From Fidelibacterota bacterium (GTDB lineage: Bacteria > Fidelibacterota > UBA8477 > JABMPR01), in assembly GCA_016844945.1 (NCBI GenBank), contig JAERTJ010000111.1:16387-80386 (forward strand): a stretch of DNA of 64,000 nt, given 5' to 3'. This document shows, in pieces, positions 17,079-49,846 of the stretch. Position 1 is the first letter of the stretch. Each line of letters begins with the position of its first letter. The position numbers were made by a program, and so were the translations under genes. Below the pieces are notes generated by a model that was not told where the DNA came from, did not search any database, and saw nothing but the letters and a program-made list of their open reading frames with translations.

Positions 17079-18195
17079 TCCAGACCCAGTCCAGATAGCT
17101 CCACAATCCATACGCCTTTTCTTCCAGAGTTTATTCAAAACACTGGTCTTTTTCTTTTTACTCATCCTTGTCCTGGCTGGTGTATATAAAGCCTTTCCAC
17201 TGGTTGTAGATGCACTCTTCCTGATTGTTATTGCAGCTATTCTTACGGCTGTGTTTAATCCAGCCGTTGATCGTCTGGAGTCATCAGGTGTGAAACGGAT
17301 TTATGGAACCCTGCTCATGTTTGGCGGAATATTCGGAATTGTGGGTGTGGGTGTTGTCAAAGGAATACCTGCTTTGCTAAACGAAGTAGGTAGAATCAAG
17401 GATGTGATTCAGCAAAATTCTGAGACCAACTCATTAGATACCATTTTAAGTGACCTCAATGCTAAGATTGCAGAATATGTCCCGGGCTTTCAACTTGATC
17501 CTGAAATGATTTCCAGTGTATCCGCACAATTTTTTAGCCAATTAGGATCTATCCTGGCTGGTGCCCTGGATACGCTGGCTACCATCATCTTCATTCTGAT
17601 TATCACCATGTTTTTTCTCGTGGATGGAAAGCGAATGACCAAAAGTTTGATCGGAATGACACCGAATAAATATTTCGAGATGTCCCTCAATATTACCTAT
17701 CGGACCAAACAGCAATTAACCAATTTTCTTCGGGGACAGTTGTTGGCAGCTCTGGGAGTTGCAGTACAGTCCTTTATTGGACTCAGTTTACTGAATTTGA
17801 TTTTTGATACAAACATTTCCGGTGTCATGTTGATTGGCTCTATAGCGGGTCTGGCAAACATGATCCCCTTTGTTGGTCCTTTTATGGGCATGGTTCCAGC
17901 TATCATTGTTAGTTTATTCAATAACCTGGGTGATCCTGTTGCTGCAGCAAACTTCTACTACATCCTTCACATTATCGTCATGTTTCTCATCGTTCAGATG
18001 ATTGACAATAATATCATCTCACCCATTGTGGTATCTGGCTCCATGGAAATGCACCCATTGACAGTCATATTATTGATTCTGGTAGGATCTCAAGTTGGCG
18101 TTTTAGGGATGTTTCTGGCAGTGCCTGCATGGGGTATATCAAAGGTGATTATTCAGGAGGTGTATCAGGGATTAAAAGGGCATCATCTCATTTAA
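17071..18195 (+). CDS. AI-2E family transporter (PerM/YdiK-like permease)
   Basis: 374 aa, multi-TM, with motifs typical of the family (LRGQLL..., IPFVGPF). The ATG at 17071 overlaps the upstream TAG (17076-17078). Confidence 0.8.
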   Translation: MSSPDPVQIAPQSIRLFFQSLFKTLVFFFLLILVLAGVYKAFPLVVDALFLIVIAAILTAVFNPAVDRLESSGVKRIYGTLLMFGGIFGIVGVGVVKGIPALLNEVGRIKDVIQQNSETNSLDTILSDLNAKIAEYVPGFQLDPEMISSVSAQFFSQLGSILAGALDTLATIIFILIITMFFLVDGKRMTKSLIGMTPNKYFEMSLNITYRTKQQLTNFLRGQLLAALGVAVQSFIGLSLLNLIFDTNISGVMLIGSIAGLANMIPFVGPFMGMVPAIIVSLFNNLGDPVAAANFYYILHIIVMFLIVQMIDNNIISPIVVSGSMEMHPLTVILLILVGSQVGVLGMFLAVPAWGISKVIIQEVYQGLKGHHLI

Positions 18196-20680
18196 AGCGT
18201 GTCTGTTTGGCGGAGTATTCAATCCTCTCTATCGTGCCGTTTCTCAGATACAACCAAATTTCCACAGACTCAGATTTAGGGTATACATAAAGTTCATAGT
18301 CACCTTCCTGGAATTTGCGTTCTGGAGGTCCAACATAACGCACAATCATAGAGCCCTTCATTCCTATCTTTGGACTGAAGTTTTCTGGGTCTAATCCCTT
18401 AATATCATTCATCAGGTTATCCAAAGCCATGCGTTTCATCGGGGCAATATGCAATTCATCAGCTTCTTTTATCGCACCCTCAAGGTCTTTTAGATGATCA
18501 TCAACAATACCTGATAGAACTGGATTGAGGTCCTTTGCCTCTTTCATAGCTTCATAGACCATTTTACGATCTTCTTTGAGTATACCCTGGTTGGCATCTT
18601 CAAGTCTTCCATCCCCAATTTTCAACCGTAAGCCATTGGTAAGGTGTCTGTATTGGTCTGTGAGTCCGTCAGCCTGCTTTAACCAGTATAGACTTCGCCC
18701 ATACACCCCGGAATTATACAGGACAGTTGCCCGAATGATATAGGAGCGAGCCAGAAGCACTTTAGCGATGGGGAAGCAGGAGGGATCGCTTTTAAGGGCA
18801 AGGAGAACCAAATCCTCAGCCAGTTCATAGTCAAGGATCTTGAGTGCCGCTGCAACACCTGCCAGTGCCCGGTCTGAAATCTCTATTTTCATTTCTGCCA
18901 CAGCAAGATCAATGGCTTCACCTGGAGGACGATCACCCTGCTCAATCAAGGAATAGGCGTCCCAGATTTTCCCCTGGGATAAAATTGTCCGAACGTCCCG
19001 GTAGTACTCGGTCACCAGTGAGTCTTCAACCATTTGTTTCTGGATAAGCACCGCTTTTTTGTTGTGATGATTTTTATTGAATTGAAGTAGCTCCTGTTGA
19101 ATCTCTAGAGCAGTGGTGAACTTCTTCTTTCTGAAGGTTTCGTGGGCTTTCTGAGCTGCATTAGGATAACCCCCAAACATGAGCCCAATATTGACAGAAA
19201 ACACAGCCTGGCTAAGATCAATAAATGTAATTGGGATGCGTTCACCTGGGTTATTTGGAGCCCAATCAGAATTATCCATATCTATTGAGAATGCTTGATG
19301 ATAGTAATCCAGACCTGCGCCAAAAGAGACCCTTGAGCTCCCATCACCTTTGATTGTATATCCAATACCTGTTCCAACTTGCCAGGTGAATGCTTTGGAA
19401 TCAATGATGCGTTCTTCCAGGACGTTTTCATAGAGGGTCATCAAGCCCAGCCCAGTACCTGCACTAACTCGTGTATAAAATTTTGAACCAAAGGGGTGGA
19501 CAATTTCATGATCCAAATAGATATCAAGGATCCTGGGGGCGAAGGACATCCCCGAGTAACCCGTAGAGCCGTTATTCAGGTCACGAGCCCAGCCTTCTGG
19601 AAGTGTAGCGGGCTGAAAACTTCGCCATAAGCGCACACCCAACCCACTAAAGAGGTCGACATTCGCCTGGCGAGCAATATGGAAGGGCCAGTTATATTTG
19701 AATATCTGCAGATCATAATTCTCAGAAACAGTAGACATAACGGGTAAGGATAATTCAGTTCCCAGGGTGTCATAGTTGATGGTCGCACCCTGAACAAGAC
19801 CAATGAGTCCAGTTCCTGCACTGATATTGAGTAGTCCCAATCGATAGGGGTCACGATAAGGGGTGTATGCGCCAAACAATGCTTCGCCAAATTCAAAATT
19901 TACACTCACATCGGGTGTATTCAGGGAGACTGTCTGAATAGGGGAGACAGAACCAGGTGATCCATCATCTCGTTTAAATCCTTCATCCTGGTCATTAAAA
20001 TCAAAATTTCTAAAAGAATACCCAAGATCAATACCAAACTTGACCCGCTTGCCGACTCTCCCAAACAGAGTTGTCTTCCAGCCAACCCCCAGGTCAAATG
20101 CAAAAGCGTTTGATTCAAAAATTCGAACACTACTCGGGTTATTGTAAAAGCTCAGATGCGTGATGCCTGTTCCAAGTTGAGCGTGGAAAGAGCCTCTTGA
20201 ACTATACTTGTAAATAAATGTGTGACTCAGAGATATTCCCTTCATCAGCATATTTACATAAAATCCTGTTACACTACTTCCGTTCAGGTGAAATGTTGAT
20301 GGATAGCTTGTCGGTAAAGGGATGGTTCCCAGCTGATTTGACCAGGAATAGTTTAGACTCGAATAGGCATCAAAATCGCTTGAAGTATTGAGGTGATGCC
20401 ACCAGTGGTACCGAACAAGTTCGAAATCAAGATTTAGAAGTACCCCACGGATAGTATCCTGAATTGTCCAGCCACCAGAAGAAGGTTTGACCTCAAGGTT
20501 TTGTGAGGGTTTTAAGGAAAAATACGATATACCTGTATTGATCCCGGGGAAAGCGAGAAGGTCAGGTGCTTCAATGGGAATTTCCTGAGAAAACCCCATC
20601 ACGATCAATAGCAATCCTGTGTATGTTATTCTCCTGAATAATTTATGAGTCATCTCATTGAAATTAGCTTTGTAGATCAA
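18188..20680 (-). CDS. Large envelope protein: signal peptide + beta-rich (barrel-like) region + helical repeat region + BamE/SmpA-OmlA-like C-terminal domain
   Basis: 830 aa. A likely signal peptide (RRITYTGLLLIVMGFSQE) follows an alternative Met 9 codons in. About 480 aa show an alternating-hydrophobic, Gly/aromatic-rich strand pattern, and about 230 aa are helical and TPR-like. The C-terminus (KIGMKGSMIVRYVGPPE...YELYVYP...VEIWLYLRNGTIERIEY) resembles BamE-type domains. No family recognised. Confidence 0.5.
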   Translation of the reverse strand: MIYKANFNEMTHKLFRRITYTGLLLIVMGFSQEIPIEAPDLLAFPGINTGISYFSLKPSQNLEVKPSSGGWTIQDTIRGVLLNLDFELVRYHWWHHLNTSSDFDAYSSLNYSWSNQLGTIPLPTSYPSTFHLNGSSVTGFYVNMLMKGISLSHTFIYKYSSRGSFHAQLGTGITHLSFYNNPSSVRIFESNAFAFDLGVGWKTTLFGRVGKRVKFGIDLGYSFRNFDFNDQDEGFKRDDGSPGSVSPIQTVSLNTPDVSVNFEFGEALFGAYTPYRDPYRLGLLNISAGTGLIGLVQGATINYDTLGTELSLPVMSTVSENYDLQIFKYNWPFHIARQANVDLFSGLGVRLWRSFQPATLPEGWARDLNNGSTGYSGMSFAPRILDIYLDHEIVHPFGSKFYTRVSAGTGLGLMTLYENVLEERIIDSKAFTWQVGTGIGYTIKGDGSSRVSFGAGLDYYHQAFSIDMDNSDWAPNNPGERIPITFIDLSQAVFSVNIGLMFGGYPNAAQKAHETFRKKKFTTALEIQQELLQFNKNHHNKKAVLIQKQMVEDSLVTEYYRDVRTILSQGKIWDAYSLIEQGDRPPGEAIDLAVAEMKIEISDRALAGVAAALKILDYELAEDLVLLALKSDPSCFPIAKVLLARSYIIRATVLYNSGVYGRSLYWLKQADGLTDQYRHLTNGLRLKIGDGRLEDANQGILKEDRKMVYEAMKEAKDLNPVLSGIVDDHLKDLEGAIKEADELHIAPMKRMALDNLMNDIKGLDPENFSPKIGMKGSMIVRYVGPPERKFQEGDYELYVYPKSESVEIWLYLRNGTIERIEYSAKQTRFK

Positions 20681-21491: not shown

Positions 21492-22541
21492 TTATTTCAG
21501 GCTTTTCTCAAGTTTATCCATTTTTTTGAACTTTTCGGATTTTGTTCCATAGAGATGATAGTATGTCATCTTCAATTCATGAACAACATCCAGGCTCTCA
21601 GGTGTGATTTCAAATGCTAGTTCGAGGTATTTCTCAGCCTCTTTATGCTTCTTCAGACGACCAAAAGCGAGACCTGCGTTGAACAAACCATCTACTTCGG
21701 TTGGGTTGATTTCTGTTACTTTAATAAATTCAGCAGCAGCTTCTTCCCATTTTTCTTGCTGGAAGTAAAGCACACCCAGGTTGTAATGAAGATCAGTACT
21801 GTTTGGATCAACTTCAATGGCGTTCAAATAAGCCTCAGCAGCTTTTAACTTTTCTCCCATGGCATCCAGGGCAAAAGCTTTTTGCTTGATGGCATTGATA
21901 TTTGAAGGATCAATTGCAAGTGCCCGATCGAGATAAACCAATGCGTTTATATAATCTTTTTCCTGGGCATAAACATTTCCAAGATTTACCAGAGCAACGA
22001 TTTCCTCAGGATTCTTCTCTACCGTGAGAATCATATACTCTTTACCCTTGGCATAATCACCCTTGAAAAGATAGACCTGTGCCAGTGTGGCATATGCCTC
22101 AGGCTTTTCAGCATTCATGGTAATACAATCGAGGAAAGCCTGGACTGTATTTGCATATAGCTCTTCTTCATCCTTGGCTTCGCCTTTGATGAGTGCATTG
22201 TAGCCCTTTGCACCCAGGTTGAAATTGTCAACCCAGTATTTTTCTCGAGCCATATCAATTTTTTCAGCAAATTTACCATCAATTGCTTCAGACTGGCTTA
22301 AGTAGGATGCAACTTTGTCCCAGGTTTTATTCCGCGCATAAATTTCAGTAGCCAGTAGATATGTTGGCTCTGAGTTCATTGGTTCTTTTTCTGCAGCAGC
22401 GAGTAACATCTCTTCAGCTTTTTCATAGTTCTTTTGCTGTAGATACACTTTGGCTGAGGTCATGTCTGTGGAGTCACAGCCAAGGATGGTCAGTAGCAAA
22501 ATTCCTACAATCCATATCAGCAGGTTTCTAGATAGTTTCAT
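21492..22541 (-). CDS. Tetratricopeptide-repeat (TPR) lipoprotein
   Basis: 349 aa. Lipobox-like LTILGC after the signal peptide, with multiple TPR units (AxxxYxxALxxxP patterns, e.g. ALVYLDRALAIDPSN). Confidence 0.8.
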   Translation of the reverse strand: MKLSRNLLIWIVGILLLTILGCDSTDMTSAKVYLQQKNYEKAEEMLLAAAEKEPMNSEPTYLLATEIYARNKTWDKVASYLSQSEAIDGKFAEKIDMAREKYWVDNFNLGAKGYNALIKGEAKDEEELYANTVQAFLDCITMNAEKPEAYATLAQVYLFKGDYAKGKEYMILTVEKNPEEIVALVNLGNVYAQEKDYINALVYLDRALAIDPSNINAIKQKAFALDAMGEKLKAAEAYLNAIEVDPNSTDLHYNLGVLYFQQEKWEEAAAEFIKVTEINPTEVDGLFNAGLAFGRLKKHKEAEKYLELAFEITPESLDVVHELKMTYYHLYGTKSEKFKKMDKLEKSLK

Positions 22542-28513: not shown

Positions 28514-29752
28514 ATGAGGCTAGTAGAAAAACCTGAATTTGATTCACTAAAACAATGGAAGATATTTGAACACATTCCAGATGCGGAATTGAAGCAGATA
28601 TATGGAAAGATCGATTATTGTCATTACGACCATGAGGAATCGATCATCCATGAAGAAACTATTGGTGATCATATTTACATCCTGACTTCTGGAAAAGTCC
28701 GGATTGAGAAAAAAATTGGCGAAACCACCTCGGAAGTCCTCGGATTCTATGATGAAGTTGGTGGTCTCTTTGGTGAAATGGCTCTACTTGAAGATAAACC
28801 TCGCAGCGCAGGGATGATTGCAGATACGGATTGTGAAGTCATTGCAGTTTCCAAGGATGACTTTCTGGAGTTAGTGCATTCTGTTCCACAGTTTACCCTG
28901 GCTGTTGCCAAGAACATATCTCAGTTCCTCAGAGAAACTGATGAGCGCCTCATCAACAAATTAAAAAAAGAGAATGATGAGCTTCGTCATATGAATTATC
29001 TCCTGCAGGAAACTCAGGAAGAACTCATAGGGAAAGAAAGATTATCACTCATTGGACGTATGGCGTCTACTATTCTCCATGACATGAAAAACCCCATGTC
29101 AACCATAGGCGGTTATGCCCAACTCATCAAAATGAAAAAACATAGCGGTGAACAGTTGGCGAAATATGCTGATATCATCGCCAAGCAGGTCATTCAGTTT
29201 ACTACCATGACTCAGGATCTTCTATCCTTTGCTCAGGGCGGTGAGCAAATGCGACTCCGTTCAGTAGAGATGGCTGGTTATTTACAGGAATGCTGTGACT
29301 CCCTTATTTTGAAGTTTGAAGAACGCGGTCTCGGGTTCGAGCGAGATTTAAATTTTAAGGGAGAAGTTCGGATTGATAATGGCCGCTTCTTTCGAGTGCT
29401 GGAAAATATTTCTAATAACGCTCTGGATATCCTTGGTAGCGAAGGTTGCTTCACCATTCACAGTATGGAGGTTGAAACTGGAGTTCGCATTATTCTGGAG
29501 GATGATGGTCCCGGGATGTCTGATGATGTGATAGAGAATGCATTCAAAGAATTTTATACTTTTGGAAAACGTAAAGGAACGGGTCTTGGGTTGGCAATCG
29601 TGAAACGCATTGTCGATGAACACGATGGCATCATCAGCATTGAGTCTGAGGAAGGTGTAGGCACAAAATTTATTATCGATCTCCCTGCCGTGGGTTACAA
29701 CCTACTACCTAAAAGCAAACACCAGATTCCCATACCCTTCGAGAATAGTTAA
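28514..29752 (+). CDS. Cyclic-nucleotide-binding-domain sensor histidine kinase (CAP_ED - coiled coil - HisKA - HATPase_c)
   Basis: 412 aa. FGEMALLEDKPRSAGMIA cassette; H-box SLIGRMASTILHDMKNPM; N box (ENISNNALD); G boxes (DDGPGM, GTGLGLAIV). Confidence 0.85.
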   Translation: MRLVEKPEFDSLKQWKIFEHIPDAELKQIYGKIDYCHYDHEESIIHEETIGDHIYILTSGKVRIEKKIGETTSEVLGFYDEVGGLFGEMALLEDKPRSAGMIADTDCEVIAVSKDDFLELVHSVPQFTLAVAKNISQFLRETDERLINKLKKENDELRHMNYLLQETQEELIGKERLSLIGRMASTILHDMKNPMSTIGGYAQLIKMKKHSGEQLAKYADIIAKQVIQFTTMTQDLLSFAQGGEQMRLRSVEMAGYLQECCDSLILKFEERGLGFERDLNFKGEVRIDNGRFFRVLENISNNALDILGSEGCFTIHSMEVETGVRIILEDDGPGMSDDVIENAFKEFYTFGKRKGTGLGLAIVKRIVDEHDGIISIESEEGVGTKFIIDLPAVGYNLLPKSKHQIPIPFENS

Positions 29753-29768
29753 TGGAATAACCTTTTTT

Positions 29769-30956
29769 ATGCGCATTCTCGACCCTCCTCCCATTGCTCT
29801 GCTGGAACAACTCGATCCCTTTCAAGGGGTACATCCTGAGGAACTCAAAAAAATTAGCAACCTCATGCAACGTCAGAGCTATGAACCTGGTGAAACCCTC
29901 ATCAAGGAAGGTACCGTTGCCACACAATTCTTTGTGCTCATTAAAGGGCAACTGGATGTTGTAAAATCCATTGAAGGGGATGAATTTGAAGTTTTGAACT
30001 TCATTGAACACTCCGGAGAACTTTTTGGAGAAATGGCGCTGGTTGAGGACAAAGTACGTAGTGCAGGGATTGTCGCTCGGGAAGAGTCCGAAGTTCTGGT
30101 TGTGGAGAAGGAAGGCTTCCTGGAGCTGGTCAATCATTTTCCTCAATTCACGCTGGAAGTTGCCCGGAGTATTTCAAATTATCTCAGGCGAACAGATTCA
30201 ACACTCATCGGTACCCTGGAAGCCAAAAATCGAGAACTCAGTAGCACCATCGAGGAGCTTCAGGAAACCCGACAGGCACTGGTTCAGAATGAACGCCTCT
30301 CAATTATAGGTCGAATGGCATCAACCATTCTCCATGATCTGAAAAATCCAATGACAACAATCGCCGGATTTGCACAACTCATAGGCTTGAAAGAGATGCC
30401 CTATGAGGAAGTTGTGAAATATACAAAGGTAATTTCGCAACAAGTCATGCAGTTCAATACTCTGGCTCAGGAACTGTTAGCTTTCGCCAGAGGGAGTTCA
30501 GAACTGAAACTGGAAGTCATGGAATTCCCCAAATGCATTCAGGATACATTGATGAATGTTCAGTTTAACCTGGTTCAACAGAAAATGAATTTAGTAACAG
30601 ACTTACAATGTAAGGTCAGAGTAAATTTAGACCCAAACCGCTTTCACCGTGTGGTTGAGAACCTTGCCAATAATGCCATTGAAGCCATGGAAGAGGGGGG
30701 CGTTCTTAAAGTATTTAGTAAAGTTCAGGACGATCGACTTATCCTCAGTATAAAAGATGATGGTCATGGAATGGCACCTGAAGTCGTGGAAAAGGTCTTT
30801 GACGAATTTTTCACACACAAGAAGCATAGTGGAACAGGTCTTGGTCTGGCTATCGTGAAAAGCATTGTATCTGACCATGAAGGGTCGATCAGTGTTGACA
30901 GTGTTGTGGATCAGGGTACAACCTTTACCATCAACCTCCCTGTCATTCAGGATTGA
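29769..30956 (+). CDS. Cyclic-nucleotide-binding-domain sensor histidine kinase, paralogue of the upstream gene
   Basis: 395 aa with the same architecture. FGEMALVEDKVRSAGIVA; H-box SIIGRMASTILHDLKNPM; ENLANNAIE; DDGHGM; GTGLGLAIV. Roughly half of the positions in the kinase core look identical to the upstream paralogue (by eye). Confidence 0.85.
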   Translation: MRILDPPPIALLEQLDPFQGVHPEELKKISNLMQRQSYEPGETLIKEGTVATQFFVLIKGQLDVVKSIEGDEFEVLNFIEHSGELFGEMALVEDKVRSAGIVAREESEVLVVEKEGFLELVNHFPQFTLEVARSISNYLRRTDSTLIGTLEAKNRELSSTIEELQETRQALVQNERLSIIGRMASTILHDLKNPMTTIAGFAQLIGLKEMPYEEVVKYTKVISQQVMQFNTLAQELLAFARGSSELKLEVMEFPKCIQDTLMNVQFNLVQQKMNLVTDLQCKVRVNLDPNRFHRVVENLANNAIEAMEEGGVLKVFSKVQDDRLILSIKDDGHGMAPEVVEKVFDEFFTHKKHSGTGLGLAIVKSIVSDHEGSISVDSVVDQGTTFTINLPVIQD

Positions 30957-36600: not shown

Positions 36601-36785
36601 CCGACAGGATCAGAATATTTATAGATGCAGATGTAAGTCTGACTACAATCATTAAAGAACATCAAGAATATATCGCTAACGAAACTTTGGCTGAAGAAAT
36701 TGAGTATAAAGCCGGGCCTGGGAACTTTCAGGCTGAGTTCAAAATCGCCAAAGGGTTATTTAAAGTAGGAATTGAACGCCATTAA
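33654..36785 (+). CDS. ileS: Isoleucine--tRNA ligase
   Basis: About 1043 aa. Has a class I HIGH-type region (PMGVHHAWGRT), a CP1 editing domain, a KMSKS-type loop (DMHKSAGN) and a long C-terminal extension. The ATG at 33654 (MMKEVSSKVDF...) is preferred to the TTG at 33618; AGGAAA lies about 10 nt upstream. Confidence 0.95.
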   Translation: MMKEVSSKVDFIALEHDMLKFWEDEDIFNKLRAQNAGKPRWSFLDGPITANNPMGVHHAWGRTYKDLYQRYHAMLGMELRYQNGFDCQGLWVEVEVEKELGFKSKTDIEQYGIEAFVNKCKDRVRKFSAVQTEQSKRMGYWMDWDNSYFTMSDENNYTIWSFLKKVFDRGFIYKGYDVMPWCTRCGSALSEHEIATEGYKELTHTSIYLKFPLKDRQGESLLVWTTTPWTLSSNIMAAVHPDLDYVKVKQGDDIYYLVQGRLSILQGDYEILETIKGKDMHGWEYHGPYDELPVQKDIHHSIIFWDEISEGDGTGIVHIAPGCGKEDNALAKEIGFQVIKPIDEFGAYLEGFGSWTGRNVMEIGDEIIDDLSQKGLRYKREPITHRYPCCWRHGTELVFRPVDEWFIKMDELRTEIAEVTKQVEWIPSYGKERELDWLKNMNDWMISKKRYWGLALPIWTFEDGSFFVVGSETELKELAVEGWEEFEGKSPHKPWIDKVKIKHPDTGLIGTRVPDVGNPWLDAGIVPYSTMDYRKDPDYWEKWFPADFIVESLPGQFRNWFYAILAMSTVMENRPPIKTIMGHALVKDEHGDDMHKSAGNAIWFEDAAEKMGVDVMRWMYASQVPVNNLNFGYGAADEVRRKLLTFWNTYSFFVTYARLDKFDPMSTLDESTLTELDRWILARMNQLIGQSRRDYDTYQADKLMHKINRFVDELSNWYVRRSRRRFWKSENDTDKWAAYHTLYQALVTLAKLLAPISPFFTEAMYQNLVVATNPDAPQSIHLSSFPEVDERWLDEDLSRRVDVVIKTVELGRAARNKANLKVRQPLASISVFFPGEKDRSYAVDLKDQILDELNIKELTVVETADDLVQYDIKPNLGLLGPKYGKDMGTIRNLILQADPQQLLKQSKSGEAISLSDEQNSFELLAEELLVSTIEPEGKAVVEEAGVVVAVETELSDALISEGIARDFIRNVQNMRKDAEFDVSDRIRIFIDADVSLTTIIKEHQEYIANETLAEEIEYKAGPGNFQAEFKIAKGLFKVGIERH

Positions 36786-36789
36786 AAAA

Positions 36790-37311
36790 ATGTTGAAATA
36801 TCTGAGCATTACTGCTGTTCTGGTCATCCTTGATCACGCAACAAAGTATTGGGCTATTGTCTCACTGAAGGGCAAACCATATTGGCCGGCTGATGGAAGC
36901 CTTTTTCGTCTGGATTACGCAGAAAATTATAATATGATTTTCAGTATGTCGTTCATCCCAATGCCCCTTGTTAATACATTGGCTATCATAGCCATGGGTC
37001 TGCTGTTTTATCTCCTTTATCAGTACAAAGATCAACATCCACTCCCAAGTATTGGTCTTGCCTTCATTTTAGGTGGGGCTTTTGGCAATATACCCGAACG
37101 CTTGATTCGGGGGTATGTGGTAGACTTTATTAGCTTTGACTGGCCAGACTGGCTGTTTTTTACACGTTGGCCAACTTTTAATGTAGCTGACAGTGCCGTT
37201 AACGTTGGGATGATATTATACCTGGGATATGTCTTTTTTATTGAAGGAAAAAGAGACCAGGTCATCGCAGAAACCAGTGATTCTGGCGATGGAGAATCTG
37301 CAGTTCTCTAA
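36790..37311 (+). CDS. lspA: Lipoprotein signal peptidase (signal peptidase II)
   Basis: Has the LDxxTK motif (ILDHATKYW), FNVADS and 4 TM segments. The ATG at 36790 lies just after the ileS stop. The ORF-track TTG at 36772 would overlap ileS by 14 nt. Confidence 0.9.
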   Translation: MLKYLSITAVLVILDHATKYWAIVSLKGKPYWPADGSLFRLDYAENYNMIFSMSFIPMPLVNTLAIIAMGLLFYLLYQYKDQHPLPSIGLAFILGGAFGNIPERLIRGYVVDFISFDWPDWLFFTRWPTFNVADSAVNVGMILYLGYVFFIEGKRDQVIAETSDSGDGESAVL

Positions 37312-43062: not shown

Positions 43063-44361
43063 ATGGATACCCAAATGACAGATTATAAAGTAGCGGATAT
43101 ATCCTTAGCCGCCTACGGCCGAGAGGAAATATTACTGGCGGAAAAAGAAATGCCAGGACTCATGGAACTAAAAGCGCGATACAGTGAGTCCAAACCATTG
43201 GCAGGTGCTCGCATTGCCGGTTGTATTCACATGACCATACAGACAGCTGTGTTGATTGAAACGCTGACTGACCTGGGTGCTGAAGTTCGCTGGTCCAGCT
43301 GTAACATCTATTCAACTCAGGATCATGCTGCAGCGGCTATTGCTGACTCTGGTGTGCCTGTTTTTGCCTGGAAAGGTGAGACTGAAGAAGAATACTGGTG
43401 GTGTATTGATCAGACCCTGGGCTTTGATGGTAAGGGTCCAAATCTTCTACTGGATGATGGAGGTGACCTTACCCAGGTAATCCTTGAGCAGCACCCTGAA
43501 TGGCACAAACAAATTAAGGGTGTATCAGAGGAGACCACCACAGGTGTCCATCGTCTGTATCAGTTGATGGAGGAGGGGGGGTTACCTTTCCCAGCTATCA
43601 ATGTGAATGACTCTGTGACCAAATCTAAGTTTGATAACAAGTATGGCTGTCGTGAGTCTCTGGCTGATGGTATCAAACGCGGCACCGATATCATGCTGGC
43701 AGGTAAAAAGGTCGTAGTAGCCGGATACGGTGATGTAGGTAAGGGCTCAGCCCAATCCATGGCTGGCTATGGAGCCAAAGTTTTTGTGACTGAAATCGAT
43801 CCTATCTGCGCCCTTCAGGCCAGTATGGAAGGCTTTCAAGTCGTAACCATGGAAGAGGCTGCCAAGTTTGGGGATATCTTTGTCACCACCACGGGGTGTA
43901 AAGATGTCATCCGGGGTGAACACATGGAGCAGATGAAGGACAATGCTATTCTGGCTAATATTGGTCACTTCGATCATGAGATTGATGTAGCCTGGTTGGA
44001 GAACAACCCAGGTATCACCGAGACCAATATCAAAGCTCAGGTTGATAAATTCGAATTCCCTGATGGCAAGTCAATCATTCTACTGTCTCGCGGACGCCTG
44101 GTCAATCTTGGCAATGCCACGGGTCATTCATCTTTCGTAATGTCTACTTCATTTACAAACCAAGTCTTAGCACAAATGGCACTTCATGAAGGTTCAGTTG
44201 AAGATGGTGTTCAGGTTCTATCAAAAGAACTTGATGAAGAGGTCGCCCGGCTGCACCTGGCTCATCTTGATGCCAACCTGACAACCCTGACTGAAGATCA
44301 GGCTGAATATCTGGGAGTTCCTCAAAAGGGTCCCTTTAAACCGGAACACTATAGATACTAG
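43063..44361 (+). CDS. ahcY: Adenosylhomocysteinase
   Basis: 432 aa. Has the NAD-binding [15 protein letters not shown] and SFTNQVLAQ motifs typical of SAH hydrolase. Confidence 0.95.
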
Positions 44362-44477
44362 GAAAAGGGTAGCAGATAATTCATTCCAAAATTAAAGGAA
44401 GAGTCGCTGGACTGGTTCTGGCTGTAACCTGGGGGCTGCTCGTTCTTCAGTGCGATTTTGGGCTACCTACTAAAGTT

Positions 44478-47354
44478 GTGCTGCCAACATGGCAAGTTAC
44501 CCTCACAATACCTCTTGTCTCTGAGAATTACCCATTCGACGGACTATTATCTTCTGATACGACTGGAACCATTCAAGTCTACGGTGATTCCGTGGACACG
44601 AACAGTGATGGCTTTATGGACATCTTGTTGCCTGACACACTATCAGACTATCCCGGTGGTCTTTATATCACCCTGGAAAATGATCTCCCCCCAATAACTC
44701 TTCCTGAAGACATGTTTGTTATACCTGGACAAGATCCCATGGAACTAGGTGTTGGACCGATATCTCTGGGCGCAATCATGCCGGATGTGATATCAGAGGG
44801 AATTCAAGTTGGACCGATTGACACAACCTTGTATATGGCGGATATGGGTTTTTCATTTCCCTCCTTTACCAATGATACAATACCAGCGTCAACATGTGAT
44901 GATCCCAATGCCCGAAGATCCATGACAGTGAACTTTACATTTGGTGATGCAGATACGAATATAAATTTTGATCAGGATGTCCAGCTCCCCGGCTATGCTC
45001 TGGAAATTGATTATAGCCTGTTCAGTCTCACAGATCAAGGTGGCTGTGAACCGTGCGGGACAATTCCGGAAACCTATATTTGTTCGGGTACTGAGTCTTA
45101 CCCCGTTTTGGCGGAGGGGACCTCAATCAATATCCCTGATTCACCCCTTCCGACCATTCGTCAGGCATTCGCACTTCTACCGGATCCATCCACACTCCCT
45201 GCAGGTGTACCCATTGAGAGTTTTGAATCAGTGACCATTGATTCAGGTAGTATTTCCTCCATCATCAATAGTCAGCTCCCCTTATCATCATCTAACACCG
45301 GCTTGGTTGTCTATACTAAAAAAGCCAATGGGGATACCACACATCTCCACAATCACTTTTTTGATGAACTTGAGCCCTATATGGTCGGGCGAGAAGATGA
45401 TACGACTAGAATTTCAAGTTTGGCTGGTGTTTCCGTTTATGACAGCCTGATCTTTGAATTTGGTGGACTGATCAATGGTAATAATGGTGATACATTATTA
45501 TTCCCCCAGGGTGTGAATCCCTTTTTCCAATATAGTTTTTCCCTGGAAATTAACGAATTCAGAAGTGTCGAAGTAAATATGCTCGACACCACTATTACCA
45601 CCTACCAACCCATGAATACCAGCTCTGAAGATGAATCTGGACAGGGCTTTAGCGTTGAAATCGTTTCAGCTTCTTTTAAGGATATTCTTACTGACGATGC
45701 TGATACAAACAAATTGAGTATCAATGTGAGCAATCGCATGGGTATGGACATCGAGTCCATGGAAATCAGGCTTCATAACTTTTTTGAAACCCAAATACTT
45801 AAGGATGCTGGTGTTTCGGAAAGGATCACCTTTAACCTACCAGCTGATTCCACGGTTGACACAACAGTAGTGCTGGATGGTCATATTCTCAGCAATACAA
45901 CCAATGATAATGCCCCCCTGGATTCCCTCTTTATTGAAACAGTGGTTGAATTTAGTGCAGGTGATGAACCAACTTCCATTCCATTTCCCCTTCCAGATGA
46001 TATGACCATGGACGTGGGAGTGCTCATGACGCCCCTCAGGATCGCAGATTTAACAGGTCTATTCGATATTAGTTTTGAAATTAGCGATCAGGAACAACCA
46101 CTGAGCTTACCTGGACTTGTAGGCGGGATAACCTTTGGTGAGGCAATTCTAGCCATCACAATGAATAACGAGTTCGGTGTTTCCCCAGGACTGGGGCTTG
46201 AAGTAAAGGGTCACCGGGGAGATGATAGTGTTGTTGTTGCCCTCAATCCCGATTCGGTCAGTTTTCAATCTGGGTCACCTGATGTACCCGTGACCACTGA
46301 AATCCGTATCAGTCGAGAATATGTGAAACGAAAGGTTGGAATTATCGAGTCAGTTGTCCAGCATTTTGATGATGACAACAATATCGTCAACCTTATGGCG
46401 ATGATGCCAGATATTGTTTCAGTGGGTGGGGATGCGCAAATCTCACCTGATGGACTGACCTCAATTACGGCAGGCGCGGAAATATCTGGAACCTGGCGTT
46501 TTGAAATCCCTTTCCTCTTGAGTGTCGCCAGTGGCGTTGAATTTATGCCACCTAACTTTTCAAAGATGGCAGCTCTTGATTCCAGCACCATCAAACAACT
46601 TGTCGGGAGCAACGGCATTCCTGATGAATCTGATATGCTCATCAGCTCAACGATAAATACTATCCTCTATAGTGATATCGGGTTGGGATTTGGTATGGAA
46701 ATTCTGGTCTCGGATATCCCATACTTCCCATTTTATAACAGTGTTGAAAATCGCATACTAGTCTCTGCTGATCTTGACCTCGATGGCGCTGCTGATACCC
46801 TTGATCTCAATCTTGATACCCTCATTTTACATCCCATCGTGAAGACACTTGAACTTGAAATTCCCGCAGGGGTTACGGATCCAAGATCAGGAATTGTTAT
46901 TCCAGGCATGGAGGGAATGGGACAGTACTCTTATTCAGCAGATTTCAATCTGGATGATGTTGAAGGCGACTCAACTTATGGAACCCTCAAACATCATAAA
47001 TACGCCTTCCTCGATACATTCCTCCTCGCTAAATCAGATTCAGGATTCACGGATGTCAGCTCTGCATTATTATCCGCTGGTCTGGATGCACCGACTGTCG
47101 CTGATAGCTTATACAATCTGGAACTTAATCCTGAAGGTACAGAGTTACTACTCATGATGGATGTGACAGATTATGGGGAGTTAGGCTGGCTGATTGAGGA
47201 AAAAGATCATTATATCGCCACCAAGTTTGTCCTTGATGAAACGCCCAATCCTGCTCTGTTACCCTTCTCTGCAGGGATTGATGTGACGGCCTTTATGCAA
47301 TTTATCATGAACTCCGGCCCCATGTTTGGTTCAGAGGCAGATTCCACAGAATGA
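44478..47354 (+). CDS. Large acidic secreted protein, probable lipoprotein; real start probably upstream at 44376-44391 (ATA/ATT)
   Basis: 958-aa ORF from the GTG at 44478. The same frame is open back to the TAG at 44370-44372 and encodes ...KIKGRVAGLVLAVTWGLLVLQCDFG..., a signal-peptide/lipobox-like segment. The body is D/E/S/T/N-rich with no recognisable catalytic motif. D-x-D-x-D-G-like loops (DTNSDGFMD, DLDLDGAAD) and a small Cys cluster (GGCEPCG...YICSG) are present. Confidence 0.6.
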   Translation: MLPTWQVTLTIPLVSENYPFDGLLSSDTTGTIQVYGDSVDTNSDGFMDILLPDTLSDYPGGLYITLENDLPPITLPEDMFVIPGQDPMELGVGPISLGAIMPDVISEGIQVGPIDTTLYMADMGFSFPSFTNDTIPASTCDDPNARRSMTVNFTFGDADTNINFDQDVQLPGYALEIDYSLFSLTDQGGCEPCGTIPETYICSGTESYPVLAEGTSINIPDSPLPTIRQAFALLPDPSTLPAGVPIESFESVTIDSGSISSIINSQLPLSSSNTGLVVYTKKANGDTTHLHNHFFDELEPYMVGREDDTTRISSLAGVSVYDSLIFEFGGLINGNNGDTLLFPQGVNPFFQYSFSLEINEFRSVEVNMLDTTITTYQPMNTSSEDESGQGFSVEIVSASFKDILTDDADTNKLSINVSNRMGMDIESMEIRLHNFFETQILKDAGVSERITFNLPADSTVDTTVVLDGHILSNTTNDNAPLDSLFIETVVEFSAGDEPTSIPFPLPDDMTMDVGVLMTPLRIADLTGLFDISFEISDQEQPLSLPGLVGGITFGEAILAITMNNEFGVSPGLGLEVKGHRGDDSVVVALNPDSVSFQSGSPDVPVTTEIRISREYVKRKVGIIESVVQHFDDDNNIVNLMAMMPDIVSVGGDAQISPDGLTSITAGAEISGTWRFEIPFLLSVASGVEFMPPNFSKMAALDSSTIKQLVGSNGIPDESDMLISSTINTILYSDIGLGFGMEILVSDIPYFPFYNSVENRILVSADLDLDGAADTLDLNLDTLILHPIVKTLELEIPAGVTDPRSGIVIPGMEGMGQYSYSADFNLDDVEGDSTYGTLKHHKYAFLDTFLLAKSDSGFTDVSSALLSAGLDAPTVADSLYNLELNPEGTELLLMMDVTDYGELGWLIEEKDHYIATKFVLDETPNPALLPFSAGIDVTAFMQFIMNSGPMFGSEADSTE

Positions 47355-48718
47355 AAAAATTAACAGTCATATGGTTATTCTTCCTGCTTGTTGTGTCATC
47401 TGCAATTGGGCAAGCCCATATTGATGCTCGAGGTTTGGGCGTTTGTAATGCCTATACCGTGAGCTCCAGGGGAATCTCAGCCATTGGCTATAACCCTGCA
47501 AATCTCGGGTTTACAGATGAAGTAAAAATGAGTGCAGATCTGCTGGATTTCAAAATTACTGCATATAATAATTTTATGTCGCTGGCACTCTTCAATCAAT
47601 ATTTCACAGGCGATCGTGATGGAGAGCCCTACGATTTAGAGGTCAGGAAACCCGGTAGCGATCAAACGCATAAAGAATATCTGCTTTCCGAGATTCCTGA
47701 GGATGGATTTGCTGTGGGGTTGGGTGTTTCTGTTCCTCTCATTAATGTTTCGGTTGGAAACTATGCCTTCACCTCTGGGGTGGAATACTATATGCGGAAT
47801 ACCCTCCCACGTAGCATGTTTGAAGTTGTTATGGATGGAAATCAGGTGGGAAGATCTTTCGATCTGGCACTTTCACAGGACATCCTCATGGTAACCAATT
47901 TTGGGTTTTCTTTCGCCATTCCCTTTGAAAAGTACAATATTGGAGCAACGATTAAGTACCTGGCAGGCATCGGTTTTGCCGGAGTTGATTCAGCAGGTGG
48001 TTCCTTTAGCACTGAAGCCACAGGGCTTGAATCAGATGGTTTCTATCGTTTTACCAGAGCTATCGGAGGTAATGGTCTAGCTGTAGATTTAGGTTTCAGC
48101 ACTCGTAAAATCGACAACTGGCAATTTGGGATAGCCATTAACAATGTTATAGGATTTATCAACTGGGGAAATGAAGATAACTACATTGCCAAGAGCATAG
48201 GAGCTATTGAATCTTCAATGCCCGTTCGTGAATGGTTTCAGATACCAACAGATAGTTCGGACTATTCAGCCAGTACGCTTTACACGATGGATCTTGAAAA
48301 TGTTAATGTCACCAGTGCACTGGCAAATTCGGATAGCCTTTTCCAATTTCATGATCAAGATGTCGCCACTCCGGATAGTATTCGGATGAATTATCCCGCC
48401 ATTTTTAGACTTGGCGGTAGTTACCAATACAAAAAAGATTTTATCGTCATGGCTGATCTCTCAGCCGGGTTTGATGATTATTATTTCGCCAGTAGAGCCT
48501 GGCGTCTGGCAATTGGAGCAGAGTGGATAAGGTTTAAAATGGCTCCCATCCGTTCGGGAATTGCCTTTGGGGGACCTTACGGCAGTGAAGCCTCACTTGG
48601 GGCTGGAGTCCACCTGATCTGGTTCGATGCTGACATTGCACTCAAACTGCTGGGCGGAATGTCACTCGCCAATGCAGAGGGTATTGAATTCGGGATGAGC
48701 TTCCAATTCAAGCGTTAA
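47351..48718 (+). CDS. Predicted outer-membrane beta-barrel protein (DUF5723 / PorP-SprF / TraF-like impression)
   Basis: 455 aa. Signal peptide (WLFFLLVVSSAIGQA), an N-proximal YNPANLG motif, repeated amphipathic strand pattern with Gly/aromatic girdles and a C-terminal GIEFGMSFQFKR. ATGA overlap with the upstream large ORF. Confidence 0.6.
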   Translation: MKKLTVIWLFFLLVVSSAIGQAHIDARGLGVCNAYTVSSRGISAIGYNPANLGFTDEVKMSADLLDFKITAYNNFMSLALFNQYFTGDRDGEPYDLEVRKPGSDQTHKEYLLSEIPEDGFAVGLGVSVPLINVSVGNYAFTSGVEYYMRNTLPRSMFEVVMDGNQVGRSFDLALSQDILMVTNFGFSFAIPFEKYNIGATIKYLAGIGFAGVDSAGGSFSTEATGLESDGFYRFTRAIGGNGLAVDLGFSTRKIDNWQFGIAINNVIGFINWGNEDNYIAKSIGAIESSMPVREWFQIPTDSSDYSASTLYTMDLENVNVTSALANSDSLFQFHDQDVATPDSIRMNYPAIFRLGGSYQYKKDFIVMADLSAGFDDYYFASRAWRLAIGAEWIRFKMAPIRSGIAFGGPYGSEASLGAGVHLIWFDADIALKLLGGMSLANAEGIEFGMSFQFKR

Positions 48719-48751: not shown

Positions 48752-49846
48752 TTATTTTTTTGCTGTCCTGTAGAATAACAAACAACCCGCAATAAAGAGT
48801 ATCACATTCCCAAACCAAACAGCAACTGAAGGGTGCATGGAGCTGTTATAGGCAACCTTTTGTCCACCAATCAACAAAATGTAATAGACAAAAAGGGCGA
48901 CCACACTTTTACCCACACCGACAGCAAGATTCTCTCTGGTCCCCTGGAGAGCAAAACTAATTCCCAGAAATATGACAATAAAGCCAGTCATCACGAATGC
49001 TAATTTGAAATGATAGTCTACCACCCAACGATGCGGGTTTAACCCCAATAGCTTTTTCTTCTCAATAAACTCGAGGAGCTGAAAAACGTTCATCTCATTG
49101 GGTCGGATTTGTTCTTTAACAATGTCTGCAGGGGTCAGGCTGATGGGTAATTCATCTCCAAGTTTAATCTGGGAGAAGATCAGTCTCCCACCTGCATCAA
49201 AGCGTCGATTCAAGCCTTCACTTTTATTCCAGATGCCTAGGGAATCATCCCATCTAAGTATCCCATAATCCCATCGCTCAGTAATTCCGGAATCACGATA
49301 GGCTAGAATGGAAATATCCCTACCTTTGTTATTGTGAACATCGTAAGTCTTAATGACCATTATGTTGCCATTTACATCCTGCCGCACGACTTCCTTCATT
49401 CTTTTGGGGCTTCTTTTGGGTTTTAAAATGTTCCGTGTGATTTCCTTTTGCTGATGGTTGAACGGCATGACTACCAGGTTCTGAAATCCAAATTGAAAGA
49501 CGGTGAAGAATATTCCTAATAGAAGTAAAGGACGGGCAATACGGAACATGCTGATACCGGAAGCCCGCATGGCAGCAATTTCATAATTTTTATTCAGGGT
49601 CCCCAGCGAAAATACAGTAGCTAATAACATGCTCATGGGCAATGCCATATCTATAAAATAGGGGAGGCTGTACCCATAGTATATCAACATGAGGTTTGCC
49701 CCTGCACCGGCATCGACGAAATTATCTATTTTTTCTACAAAATCAGCAATGGTGAAGATGCCGATGAGACCGATAAGCACAGTCCACATCGTTTTGAAGA
49801 AAGCACGGATCAGGTAACGATCAATGAGAGAAATAAAGCCCAACAC
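48752..49846 (-). CDS. LPS export ABC transporter permease, LptF/LptG (YjgP/YjgQ) family
   Basis: 364 aa. IDRYLIRAFF N-terminus, three TM helices, a periplasmic beta-jellyroll-like insert and three more TM helices. Confidence 0.85.
   Translation of the reverse strand: MLGFISLIDRYLIRAFFKTMWTVLIGLIGIFTIADFVEKIDNFVDAGAGANLMLIYYGYSLPYFIDMALPMSMLLATVFSLGTLNKNYEIAAMRASGISMFRIARPLLLLGIFFTVFQFGFQNLVVMPFNHQQKEITRNILKPKRSPKRMKEVVRQDVNGNIMVIKTYDVHNNKGRDISILAYRDSGITERWDYGILRWDDSLGIWNKSEGLNRRFDAGGRLIFSQIKLGDELPISLTPADIVKEQIRPNEMNVFQLLEFIEKKKLLGLNPHRWVVDYHFKLAFVMTGFIVIFLGISFALQGTRENLAVGVGKSVVALFVYYILLIGGQKVAYNSSMHPSVAVWFGNVILFIAGCLLFYRTAKK

What the first reader, a model, noticed from the sequence alone, without database searches (positions are those of the whole stretch)
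44373..48718. Orphan two-gene envelope module: roughly 990-aa acidic predicted lipoprotein translationally coupled to a 455-aa outer-membrane beta-barrel
Seen in sequence: the large ORF ends in an ATGA overlap (47351-47354) with an ORF that has a clean signal peptide. That second ORF also has a YNPANLG motif near its mature N-terminus, amphipathic strand periodicity and a barrel-like C-terminal strand (GIEFGMSFQFKR). The large protein gains a signal peptide plus Cys (LLVLQC) only if translation starts upstream of the first canonical start codon. Its body is strongly D/E/S/T/N-rich with Ca-loop-like DxDxDG segments and no motif I can tie to a known enzyme, adhesin repeat, T9SS CTD or autotransporter. 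The pair sits between core genes (metK-ahcY upstream, convergent lptF/G downstream), so it is not on an obvious mobile island. Inference: this is a cargo plus cognate barrel arrangement. It recalls large surface proteins encoded next to PorP/SprF-like barrels (sprB-sprF) or Slam-dependent surface lipoproteins, but without the hallmark domains of either. It is the best candidate in this window for an undescribed surface-display or export module.
Basis: partly seen in the sequence, partly recalled or inferred. Interest (0 to 1): 0.72.

Follow-up and report, generated by a model that had tools for sequence, protein, structure and literature searches.

The report
Conserved lipoprotein plus FadL-type barrel pair
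This is a real, translationally coupled gene pair for a large acidic lipoprotein and a FadL-fold outer-membrane barrel; it is not an orphan but a core module found across the FCB group of bacterial phyla, and it most resembles the BamH-BamG pair recently found on the Bacteroidota outer-membrane protein assembly machine.

Summary
A roughly 990-codon ORF and a 455-aa ORF overlap by ATGA. The large protein has a signal peptide plus Cys only if translation starts at ATA/ATT upstream of the first canonical start, and homologues confirm that N-terminus.

The interpretation needs correcting. The barrel is a DUF5723 protein (Pfam, above threshold) with a confident FadL fold, and YNPANLG is the FadL hatch NPA motif. 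The pair is not orphan. Relatives of the barrel in Marinimicrobia, Ignavibacteria, Zixibacteria, Krumholzibacteriota, KSB1 and Gemmatimonadota almost always sit just downstream of a lipoprotein gene, often with the same 4-nt overlap. These lipoproteins range from 345 to 965 aa (mature) but share one N-terminal motif after the Cys (P-x-W-x-V-x-L-x-x-P-L).

The closest known system is BamG (FadL-fold barrel) with BamH (surface lipoprotein docked by its conserved N-terminal tail), whose genes are reported adjacent in non-Bacteroidia FCB phyla. Membership is not shown:
- no Toluene_X or DUF4270 hit;
- no BamG-type N-terminal extension;
- no sequence hit to solved BamG or BamH.

I call it a new variant of a known kind. 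Interest is moderate.

The parts
44360..44369 (+). SD-like AGGAAAAGGG just after the ahcY stop (44359-44361) and ahead of the non-canonical start
   Evidence: Sequence read. Relatives carry AGAAGG/AAGAGG at the same place.
44376..47354 (+). Gene for the large acidic lipoprotein (992 codons counted from ATA 44376; mature 967 aa). The start is probably ATA 44376 or ATT 44379, not the GTG at 44478 listed mechanically.
   Evidence: 66 close homologues at 49-74% identity, all Marinimicrobia MAGs or unnamed. No Pfam or NCBIfam family.
44376..44453 (+). Lipoprotein-type signal peptide ending in LVLQ-C (Cys codon 44451-44453)
   Evidence: Q25 C26 D27 are invariant in 30 homologues. The Cys at the end of the hydrophobic region is kept in partner genes of every phylum examined. 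An LspA gene lies in the same window at 36772-37311.
44484..44531 (+). Family-wide N-terminal motif P-x-W-x-V-x-L-x-I-P-L-x(3)-Y (P37 to Y52). Proposed docking strand.
   Evidence: It is the only stretch shared by partners from all lineages. AlphaFold2 puts a lone strand at residues 40-53 with low confidence.
47351..47354 (+). ATGA stop/start overlap (translational coupling)
   Evidence: The same -4 overlap is seen in 32 of 75 related loci, and nearly all others lie within about 30 nt.
47351..48718 (+). Gene for a 455-aa outer-membrane barrel: DUF5723 family, FadL fold
   Evidence: Pfam PF18990 at 52.2 bits, cut-off 26.8. AlphaFold2 pLDDT 83.2, pTM 0.76. Foldseek finds FadL, TbuX, TodX, BamG and PorV, all at probability 1.0.
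47492..47500 (+). NPA motif (N48 P49 A50) of the N-terminal hatch
   Evidence: Invariant. It aligns with N33-P34-A35 of mature E. coli FadL.
48752..49846 (-). LptF/LptG permease gene, convergent. Context only, but the synteny is conserved.
   Evidence: Pfam LptF_LptG at 1.6e-72. It is the gene immediately downstream of the barrel in 65 related loci, in both Marinimicrobia and Ignavibacteria.
43063..44361 (+). ahcY, ending 14 nt before the proposed start of the lipoprotein gene. Context only; probably the same transcript.
   Evidence: The order metK-ahcY-pair is kept throughout the window's clade. No promoter or terminator signal stands out above shuffled controls.

Best explanation
The two genes encode a stoichiometric outer-membrane complex. 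A 14-stranded FadL-fold barrel (DUF5723) holds a large acidic lipoprotein by the lipoprotein's short conserved N-terminal segment, just after its lipidated Cys. The rest of the lipoprotein varies in size and is built from beta-sandwich domains. It projects from the membrane, probably on the cell surface.

Shown:
- both proteins are exported;
- the barrel fold;
- translational coupling;
- near-obligate co-occurrence of the two genes across FCB phyla;
- sequence conservation concentrated in the N-terminal 25 residues of the lipoprotein and in the barrel.

Inferred:
- lipidation and surface exposure;
- docking of the N-terminal strand on the barrel;
- the function.

The most likely function is that of BamG-BamH in the Bacteroidota BAM complex. 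There, a FadL-fold barrel sits beside BamA and anchors a surface lipoprotein that forms a canopy over the site where outer-membrane proteins fold. On this reading the pair is the divergent counterpart of bamH-bamG in Marinimicrobia and other non-Bacteroidia FCB phyla.
For: - Barrel: DUF5723 above threshold. Confident barrel model. F. johnsoniae BamG (9n2d_B) is Foldseek rank 3 at E 2.6e-9 and P. gingivalis BamG (9hjm_F) scores 1.9e-7, alongside FadL, TodX and TbuX. Strands 3-7 are long (15-27 residues), comparable to the extracellular 'pillar' of BamG described in PMC12611786.
- Partner: signal peptide plus invariant Cys, an acidic residue at +2, four further conserved Cys, pI 4.05. Mostly beta-sandwich domains.
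- Family-wide conservation is confined to about 25 residues after the Cys. [quoted passage not shown]
- Coupling and co-occurrence.
- The pair is single-copy among housekeeping genes in each lineage, with convergent lptF/G in 65 loci.
- Supplementary Table 1 of Liu et al. lists bamG and bamH as adjacent genes in Ignavibacterium, Salinibacter, Fibrobacter, Gemmatimonas and Caldithrix, and for the F. johnsoniae G2/H2 paralogues. I find this pair in Ignavibacteria and Gemmatimonadota.
- Silale et al. report DUF4270 (BamH) as confined to Bacteroidetes. The BamH homologues that Liu et al. list in other phyla are therefore probably not DUF4270 proteins. That leaves room for this partner family to be those homologues.
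Against: - The barrel has no Toluene_X hit, although BamG is described as FadL/Toluene_X.
- None of 23 partner proteins scanned hits DUF4270, even at E up to 10.
- Profiles of the barrel, the partner and the partner N-terminus find no BamG or BamH chain in the PDB at E up to 10 (at E up to 1). The only weak sequence hit is PorV, over the N-terminus only.
- The barrel's mature N-terminus has 7 residues before the GLG motif, against 11 in FadL. It therefore lacks the 12-residue N-terminal extension that distinguishes BamG (PMC12578637).
- Foldseek does not separate BamG from transport-type FadL proteins.
- I could not map the locus tags of Liu et al. to my loci.
- No BamA gene lies nearby, and no interaction was or could be tested.
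Confidence: 0.5

Rival explanations
1. A nutrient-uptake unit. The FadL-type barrel imports hydrophobic molecules such as fatty acids or hydrocarbons by lateral diffusion. The tethered surface lipoprotein captures or delivers the substrate, as SusD does for SusC or BtuG for BtuB.
For: The best Foldseek matches are true transporters: FadL, TbuX and TodX. The hatch NPA motif that FadL transport needs is invariant. The N-terminus is not extended, so the lateral opening need not be plugged as it is in BamG. The beta-sandwich, CBM-like folds of the partner would suit ligand binding.
Against: The pair is single-copy, vertically inherited and sits next to housekeeping and envelope-biogenesis genes in every lineage. 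It is never seen in a catabolic operon. The body of the partner is poorly conserved and varies threefold in size, which argues against a conserved ligand site.
Confidence: 0.2
2. A type IX secretion accessory. The barrel acts like PorV, PorQ or PorP/SprF, anchoring or shuttling a cell-surface protein, and the large protein is its surface partner.
For: - Weak N-terminal hits to NCBIfam PorV_fam (E 6.9e-6) and to solved PorV 6h3i_F (E 5.6e-4).
- PorV is among the Foldseek matches.
- In about 25 Ignavibacteria loci a small protein with a T9SS C-terminal sorting domain is encoded just upstream of the pair.
- A P. gingivalis DUF5723 protein (Q7MT24) carries the UniProt accession next to that of a T9SS-CTD protein (Q7MT25) in the table quoted. 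Genomic adjacency is my inference from the accession order and was not checked.
Against: PorV_fam scores 25.9 bits against a cut-off of 90. There is no PorP_SprF hit. The partner has a lipoprotein signal and no type A or type B C-terminal domain. The CTD-protein neighbour is absent from Marinimicrobia, KSB1 and Gemmatimonadota loci.
Confidence: 0.1
3. A dedicated export device. The barrel is the translocon or assembly factor (Slam-like) that moves its own cognate lipoprotein to the cell surface.
For: The gene order (substrate lipoprotein next to a 14-stranded barrel) mirrors Slam loci. In Ignavibacteria a TPR protein is encoded upstream, and it just passes the Pfam TPR_Slam cut-off at 36.2 bits against 35.2. 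How FCB bacteria export surface lipoproteins is still unknown (PMC12611786 discussion).
Against: There is no DUF560 hit. The barrel lumen is predicted to be filled by the FadL-type hatch, so a 104-kDa protein could not pass through it. The TPR protein hits about 20 generic TPR models and is absent from the window's clade.
Confidence: 0.1

Closest known systems
BamG-BamH of the Bacteroidota BAM complex (F. johnsoniae Fjoh_1412/Fjoh_0823, PDB 9N2D; B. thetaiotaomicron Bt4367/Bt4306, 9HJ3; P. gingivalis, 9HJM)
   Same: A FadL-fold 14-stranded barrel is paired with a lipoprotein whose conserved segment just after the lipid-anchor Cys binds the barrel. The lipoprotein body is elongated, beta-rich and poorly conserved. 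The genes are adjacent in non-Bacteroidia FCB phyla and in the G2/H2 paralogues. Foldseek places BamG among the top matches.
   Different: The barrel is Pfam DUF5723, not Toluene_X. The partner is not DUF4270. The barrel lacks the 12-residue N-terminal extension. No sequence similarity to the solved chains is detectable. The partner here is about twice the size of BamH (967 aa mature). Association with BamA is untested.
FadL/TodX/TbuX hydrophobic-substrate channels (Pfam Toluene_X)
   Same: The barrel fold and the N-terminal hatch with G-x-G...NPA motif.
   Different: About 10-14% identity in the Foldseek alignments and 17% to E. coli FadL in the MAFFT alignment. Different Pfam family. Obligate, translationally coupled lipoprotein partner. 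No catabolic gene context.
PorV/PorQ and PorP/SprF barrels of the type IX secretion system (with PorU, PorZ, SprB)
   Same: FadL-superfamily barrels that hold large cell-surface proteins. The cargo-then-barrel gene order resembles sprB-sprF.
   Different: Below the PorV_fam cut-off and no PorP_SprF hit. The partner is a lipoprotein without a T9SS C-terminal domain.
Slam (DUF560 barrel with TPR domain) and its surface lipoproteins
   Same: A 14-stranded barrel encoded next to a surface lipoprotein.
   Different: No DUF560 hit. No fused TPR domain. Different phyla. The barrel here has a FadL-type plug.

Membership tests
Pfam DUF5723 (PF18990) | Score above the curated gathering cut-off | tested here: met
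   52.2 bits against 26.8. Every barrel homologue carries the precomputed PF18990 annotation.
FadL/OmpP1 superfamily | 14-stranded barrel fold | tested here: met
   AlphaFold2 pLDDT 83, pTM 0.76. Foldseek probability 1.0, E 9e-10 to 1e-7, to FadL, TbuX and TodX.
FadL/OmpP1 superfamily | N-terminal hatch with the conserved NPA motif | tested here: met
   N48 P49 A50 are invariant and align to the FadL NPA.
FadL/OmpP1 superfamily | Pfam Toluene_X (PF03349) match | tested here: not met
   No hit at E up to 1.
BamG (Bacteroidota BAM subunit) | Conserved N-terminal extension of about 12 residues relative to FadL, which threads the lateral opening | tested here: not met
   7 residues lie between the predicted cleavage site and GLG, against 11 in FadL. 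Feature as described in PMC12578637.
BamG (Bacteroidota BAM subunit) | Sequence or structure similarity to solved BamG | tested here: inconclusive
   No HMM hit at E up to 10 or at E up to 1. Foldseek gives 9n2d_B at rank 3 and 9hjm_F at rank 21, but FadL transporters score equally well.
BamG (Bacteroidota BAM subunit) | Binds the back of the BamA barrel | not testable with these tools
   No complex prediction or biochemistry is available here.
BamG (Bacteroidota BAM subunit) | Gene adjacent to the gene of its lipoprotein partner (in non-Bacteroidia FCB phyla) | tested here: met
   ATGA overlap. 75 of 81 loci. Adjacency of bamG and bamH is listed.
BamH (Pfam DUF4270) | DUF4270 match | tested here: not met
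   No hit in the window protein, in L001, L003 and L004, or in 19 further partners, even at E up to 10.
BamH (Pfam DUF4270) | Lipoprotein with a conserved stretch of about 17 residues right after the Cys | tested here: met
   C26 to Y52 is conserved across phyla. No sequence match of this stretch to solved BamH.
BamH (Pfam DUF4270) | Surface export signal: two or more acidic residues within six positions after the Cys | tested here: inconclusive
   The window protein has CDFGLPT, with one acidic residue. Many relatives have two, for example CDFRTPEE and CEFSLFEPPE.
PorV/PorQ family (NCBIfam NF033709) | Score above the curated cut-off | tested here: not met
   25.9 bits against 90, covering only residues 23-63.
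T9SS cargo (type A or type B C-terminal domain) | C-terminal sorting domain on the large protein | tested here: not met
   No Por_Secre_tail, TIGR04183 or TIGR04131 hit at E up to 1.
Slam (DUF560) | DUF560 barrel with an N-terminal TPR domain | tested here: not met
   No hit. The barrel has no TPR region.

The most novel reading that the evidence does not exclude
The DUF5723 barrel and its P-x-W lipoprotein are not BamG/BamH. They would then be a separate, previously unrecognised, near-universal outer-membrane module of the non-Bacteroidia FCB phyla. The conserved convergent linkage to lptF/G might point to a role in outer-leaflet or LPS biogenesis, or in surface-lipoprotein export, which would make that open question testable.
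Probability: 0.3. Interest if true: 0.75.

Novelty: new variant of a known kind. Interest (0 to 1): 0.5.

Why it matters
DUF5723 has no assigned function, and the partner lipoprotein family has no Pfam or NCBIfam model at all. Yet the pair is a single-copy core feature of several large, mostly uncultured phyla, including the abundant ocean clade Marinimicrobia (SAR406).

If the pair is the local form of BamG-BamH, it extends the 2025 'extracellular canopy' model of outer-membrane protein assembly well beyond the Bacteroidota. It would also show that the canopy protein can range from about 345 to about 965 residues while keeping one docking motif. If it is not BamG-BamH, it is a new conserved envelope machine. 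Either way, the N-terminal motif together with DUF5723 gives a simple rule for annotating hundreds of 'hypothetical' gene pairs.

Tried and rejected
- Pfam and NCBIfam on the large protein returned only noise.
- PDB sequence searches with five profiles (A1, A3, A4, A6, A8) found no BamG or BamH. The A2 barrel profile gave only a weak PorV N-terminal hit.
- Foldseek with the whole 992-residue model (pLDDT 66, pTM 0.41) gave only generic jelly-roll and CBM-like matches with TM below 0.1. I did not use it for classification.
- The exhaustive profile search for the large protein found only 39 cluster representatives. Sequence search alone made the protein look orphan. Synteny with the barrel is what revealed the wider family.
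- I tried to tie the locus tags of Liu et al. to my loci and failed each time: cluster look-up, a scan with the barrel of an 'Ignavibacterium album' MAG, which did not return strain JCM 16511, and literature searches for the tags and their neighbours.
- P. gingivalis PG2172/PG2174 gave no functional information.
- Rfam found nothing between 40000 and 50000, and the promoter and terminator scans were no better than shuffled controls.
- Readthrough of the ahcY stop codon is rejected. The two genes share a frame in several relatives but not in the window.
- A mobile-island origin is rejected on GC content and synteny.

Full report
**What is in the sequence**

The window carries two same-strand ORFs, 44478..47354 and 47351..48718. 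They overlap by ATGA at 47351-47354. The first frame is open back to a TAG at 44370 and has no ATG, GTG or TTG before 44478. The upstream codons nevertheless read IIHSKIKGRVAGLVLAVTWGLLVLQC-DFGLPTK. The 66 close homologues (49-74% identity, Marinimicrobia MAGs) keep this stretch. Those with an ATG start with a complete signal peptide ending in the same Q-C-D-F.

The start is most likely ATA 44376 or ATT 44379, 6-9 nt after AGGAAAAGGG and 14-17 nt after the ahcY stop. 15 of 22 close relatives likewise have only ATT, ATC or ATA at that position. One relative (L020) has ATG exactly where others have ATC.

The mature protein is 967 aa, pI 4.05, with 15% D+E. It has two DxDxDG-like loops and four conserved extra cysteines. 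GC content matches the window. The surrounding genes are housekeeping: ileS-lspA, rluD, xerC/D, mlaD, metK, ahcY, lptF/G and a CNNM transporter.

**The barrel**

The 455-aa protein passes the Pfam DUF5723 threshold at 52 bits against 26.8. Its only other hits are sub-threshold N-terminal matches to PorV_fam and FilD. AlphaFold2 with 28 homologues gives a barrel with pLDDT 83 and pTM 0.76. Foldseek against the PDB returns the FadL superfamily at probability 1.0:

| Match | E-value |
|---|---|
| P. aeruginosa FadL homologue (3dwo) | 8.9e-10 |
| F. johnsoniae BamG (9n2d_B) | 2.6e-9 |
| TbuX | 3.2e-9 |
| TodX | 5.7e-9 |
| P. gingivalis BamG (9hjm_F) | 1.9e-7 |
| PorV (8gl6_F) | 1.9e-6 |

The barrel is thus a FadL-fold protein of an uncharacterised Pfam family, not a featureless one.

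**The large protein**

No Pfam, NCBIfam or PDB sequence match is meaningful. The AlphaFold2 model is only moderate (pLDDT 66). It shows a lone N-terminal strand at residues 40-53, a low-confidence acidic loop region at 53-114, and then a series of beta-sandwich domains. Foldseek gives only generic jelly-roll or CBM-like matches with negligible TM-scores. An exhaustive profile search of 1.84 billion cluster representatives finds just 39 relatives. Judged by sequence alone, it looks orphan.

**It is not orphan**

Distant barrel homologues (25-34% identity) each have an upstream, usually overlapping, gene with no Pfam family, of 954, 511 and 533 aa. BLAST shows that the shared piece is the extreme N-terminus: signal peptide, Cys, then P-x-W-x-V-x-L-x-x-P-L.

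Three genome-collection scans with barrel profiles recovered the barrel in these groups:
- Marinimicrobia (Neomarinimicrobiota/Fidelibacterota)
- Ignavibacteria and related 'Bacteroidota' MAGs
- Zixibacteria
- Krumholzibacteriota
- KSB1
- Gemmatimonadota
- Eisenbacteria
- Delongbacteria

In the first 176 loci, ORF clustering puts the upstream protein of 165 loci into one BLAST-linked family that includes the window protein. Of 81 non-redundant loci with enough upstream DNA, 75 have a lipoprotein ORF with the motif. The overlap is exactly -4 in 32 of them and within about 30 nt in nearly all the rest.

Mature partner size runs from about 345 aa (Gemmatimonadota) through about 490 (KSB1) and about 650 (Ignavibacteria, Zixibacteria) to about 965 (the window's clade). 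For KSB1 and Gemmatimonadota, the link to the window protein rests on gene position, the lipoprotein signal and the motif, not on full-length BLAST. A few loci carry the pair twice in tandem.

**Context**

In Marinimicrobia the order is metK-ahcY-pair, followed by convergent lptF/G. Ignavibacteria also have convergent lptG-lptF right after the barrel. In total the gene downstream of the barrel is lptF/G in 65 loci. Ignavibacteria add a TPR protein and often a small protein with a T9SS sorting domain upstream. KSB1 and Gemmatimonadota loci have other housekeeping neighbours: PFK, a ComF-like protein, LepA, a heptosyltransferase, and DUF58/BatA. The picture is of a vertically inherited, stand-alone two-gene core operon.

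**Comparison with known systems**

Two 2025 papers describe a Bacteroidota BAM complex in which BamG, a 14-stranded FadL-family barrel bound to the back of BamA, anchors the surface lipoprotein BamH. [quoted passage not shown] Both proteins are essential (PMC12611786; PMC12578637).

Liu et al. state that BamG and BamH are conserved in six of seven further FCB phyla. Their Supplementary Table 1 shows the two genes with consecutive locus tags in Ignavibacterium, Salinibacter, Fibrobacter, Gemmatimonas and Caldithrix, and for the F. johnsoniae paralogues. The architecture found here matches that description: a FadL-fold barrel, an adjacent lipoprotein, and conservation concentrated right after the Cys. 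I find the pair in Ignavibacteria and Gemmatimonadota.

Silale et al. assign BamH to DUF4270, 'confined to the Bacteroidetes', and BamG to Toluene_X. The homologues that Liu et al. list in other phyla are therefore probably not DUF4270 proteins, which leaves room for them to be this family. I could not verify that, because every attempt to map their locus tags failed.

**Membership**

The strict tests fail or are inconclusive:
- no Toluene_X hit for the barrel;
- no DUF4270 hit in 23 partners;
- no HMM hit to any solved BamG or BamH chain (at E up to 1);
- the barrel's mature N-terminus is shorter than that of FadL, not 12 residues longer as in BamG.

PorV/PorQ, PorP/SprF, a T9SS C-terminal domain and Slam/DUF560 are also not met. 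I therefore claim that the pair works like BamG-BamH at about 0.5. I do not file it as a member.

**Rivals**

- A FadL-type uptake channel with a lipoprotein lid (0.2). It is favoured by the intact hatch and unextended N-terminus. The core, non-catabolic context and the poorly conserved partner body count against it.
- A T9SS-linked anchor (0.1). It is hinted at by CTD-protein neighbours in Ignavibacteria and by a weak PorV similarity, but the partner has a lipoprotein signal and no C-terminal sorting domain.
- A Slam-like dedicated exporter (0.1). A plugged 14-stranded barrel is unlikely to pass a 104-kDa protein.

**Verdict**

The feature is real and correctly observed. The 'orphan, undescribed export module' reading is replaced by a clade-specific, unusually large version of an FCB-wide lipoprotein plus FadL-fold barrel complex. 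That complex is probably the equivalent of BamH-BamG. I class it as a new variant of a known kind, of moderate interest. The decisive computation is simple: domain scans of the published FCB BamG/BamH accessions.

Noticed in passing
window 44359-44400; loci L005-L022 and L077 at the start of the partner gene: The lipoprotein gene appears to start at a non-canonical codon (ATA/ATT here; ATT/ATC in relatives), a few nt after the ahcY stop and an SD-like AGAAGG/AGGAAAAGGG. 15 of 22 close relatives have no ATG, GTG or TTG before the signal peptide, and gene callers truncated most of them. This may reflect coupling to ahcY translation or deliberate low-level initiation.
   Followed up: partly
window 48752-49846 (-); 65 related loci: An lptF/lptG permease gene lies convergently and immediately downstream of the barrel in both Marinimicrobia and Ignavibacteria, although their barrels are only about 25-30% identical. 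Synteny conserved this deeply may be more than inertia.
   Followed up: partly
Ignavibacteria loci, e.g. L089, L091, L100, L105, L147 (upstream of the pair): A 389-aa TPR protein, marginally above the Pfam TPR_Slam cut-off, is recurrently encoded just upstream of the lipoprotein gene. So is a small secreted protein with a T9SS Por_Secre_tail domain. Neither is present in the window's clade.
   Followed up: partly
loci L043, L072, L082, L125, L159: The lipoprotein-barrel pair occurs twice in tandem in some genomes. This recalls the BamG2/BamH2 paralogue pairs of Bacteroidota.
   Followed up: no
window 18188-20680 (-) and 14811-16487 (+): Two long ORFs (830 aa and 558 aa) have no Pfam match at E<=1e-3 (830-aa ORF) or E<=1e-4 (558-aa ORF). 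The first lies next to a 349-aa TPR protein at 21492-22541. Neither was examined further.
   Followed up: no
window 44-1375 (+): The first listed ORF of the window (44-1375) matches only positions 148-566 of the 572-position Pfam DUF5916 model at 1.2e-95, so it may be cut by the window edge.
   Followed up: no
window 28514-29752 and 29769-30956 (+): Two tandem paralogous sensor histidine kinases, each with an N-terminal cyclic-nucleotide-binding domain.
   Followed up: no
loci L006, L014, L022-L024, L028 (record titles): Public MAG records titled 'uncultured Lentisphaeria' (and others titled 'Chitinophagales' or 'Bacillota') carry loci collinear with this Marinimicrobia or Ignavibacteria locus, with barrels 43-79% identical to the window's in the 'Lentisphaeria' records. 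Their taxon labels look wrong.
   Followed up: no
window 44586-44621 and 46770-46787 (partner residues 71-82 and 799-804): Two nearly invariant DxDxDG-type acidic loops (DSVDTNSDGFMD and DLDLDG), plus a conserved set of four cysteines (C174, C224, C227, C236), are specific to the large Marinimicrobia form of the partner. Calcium binding and disulfides are plausible but untested.
   Followed up: no
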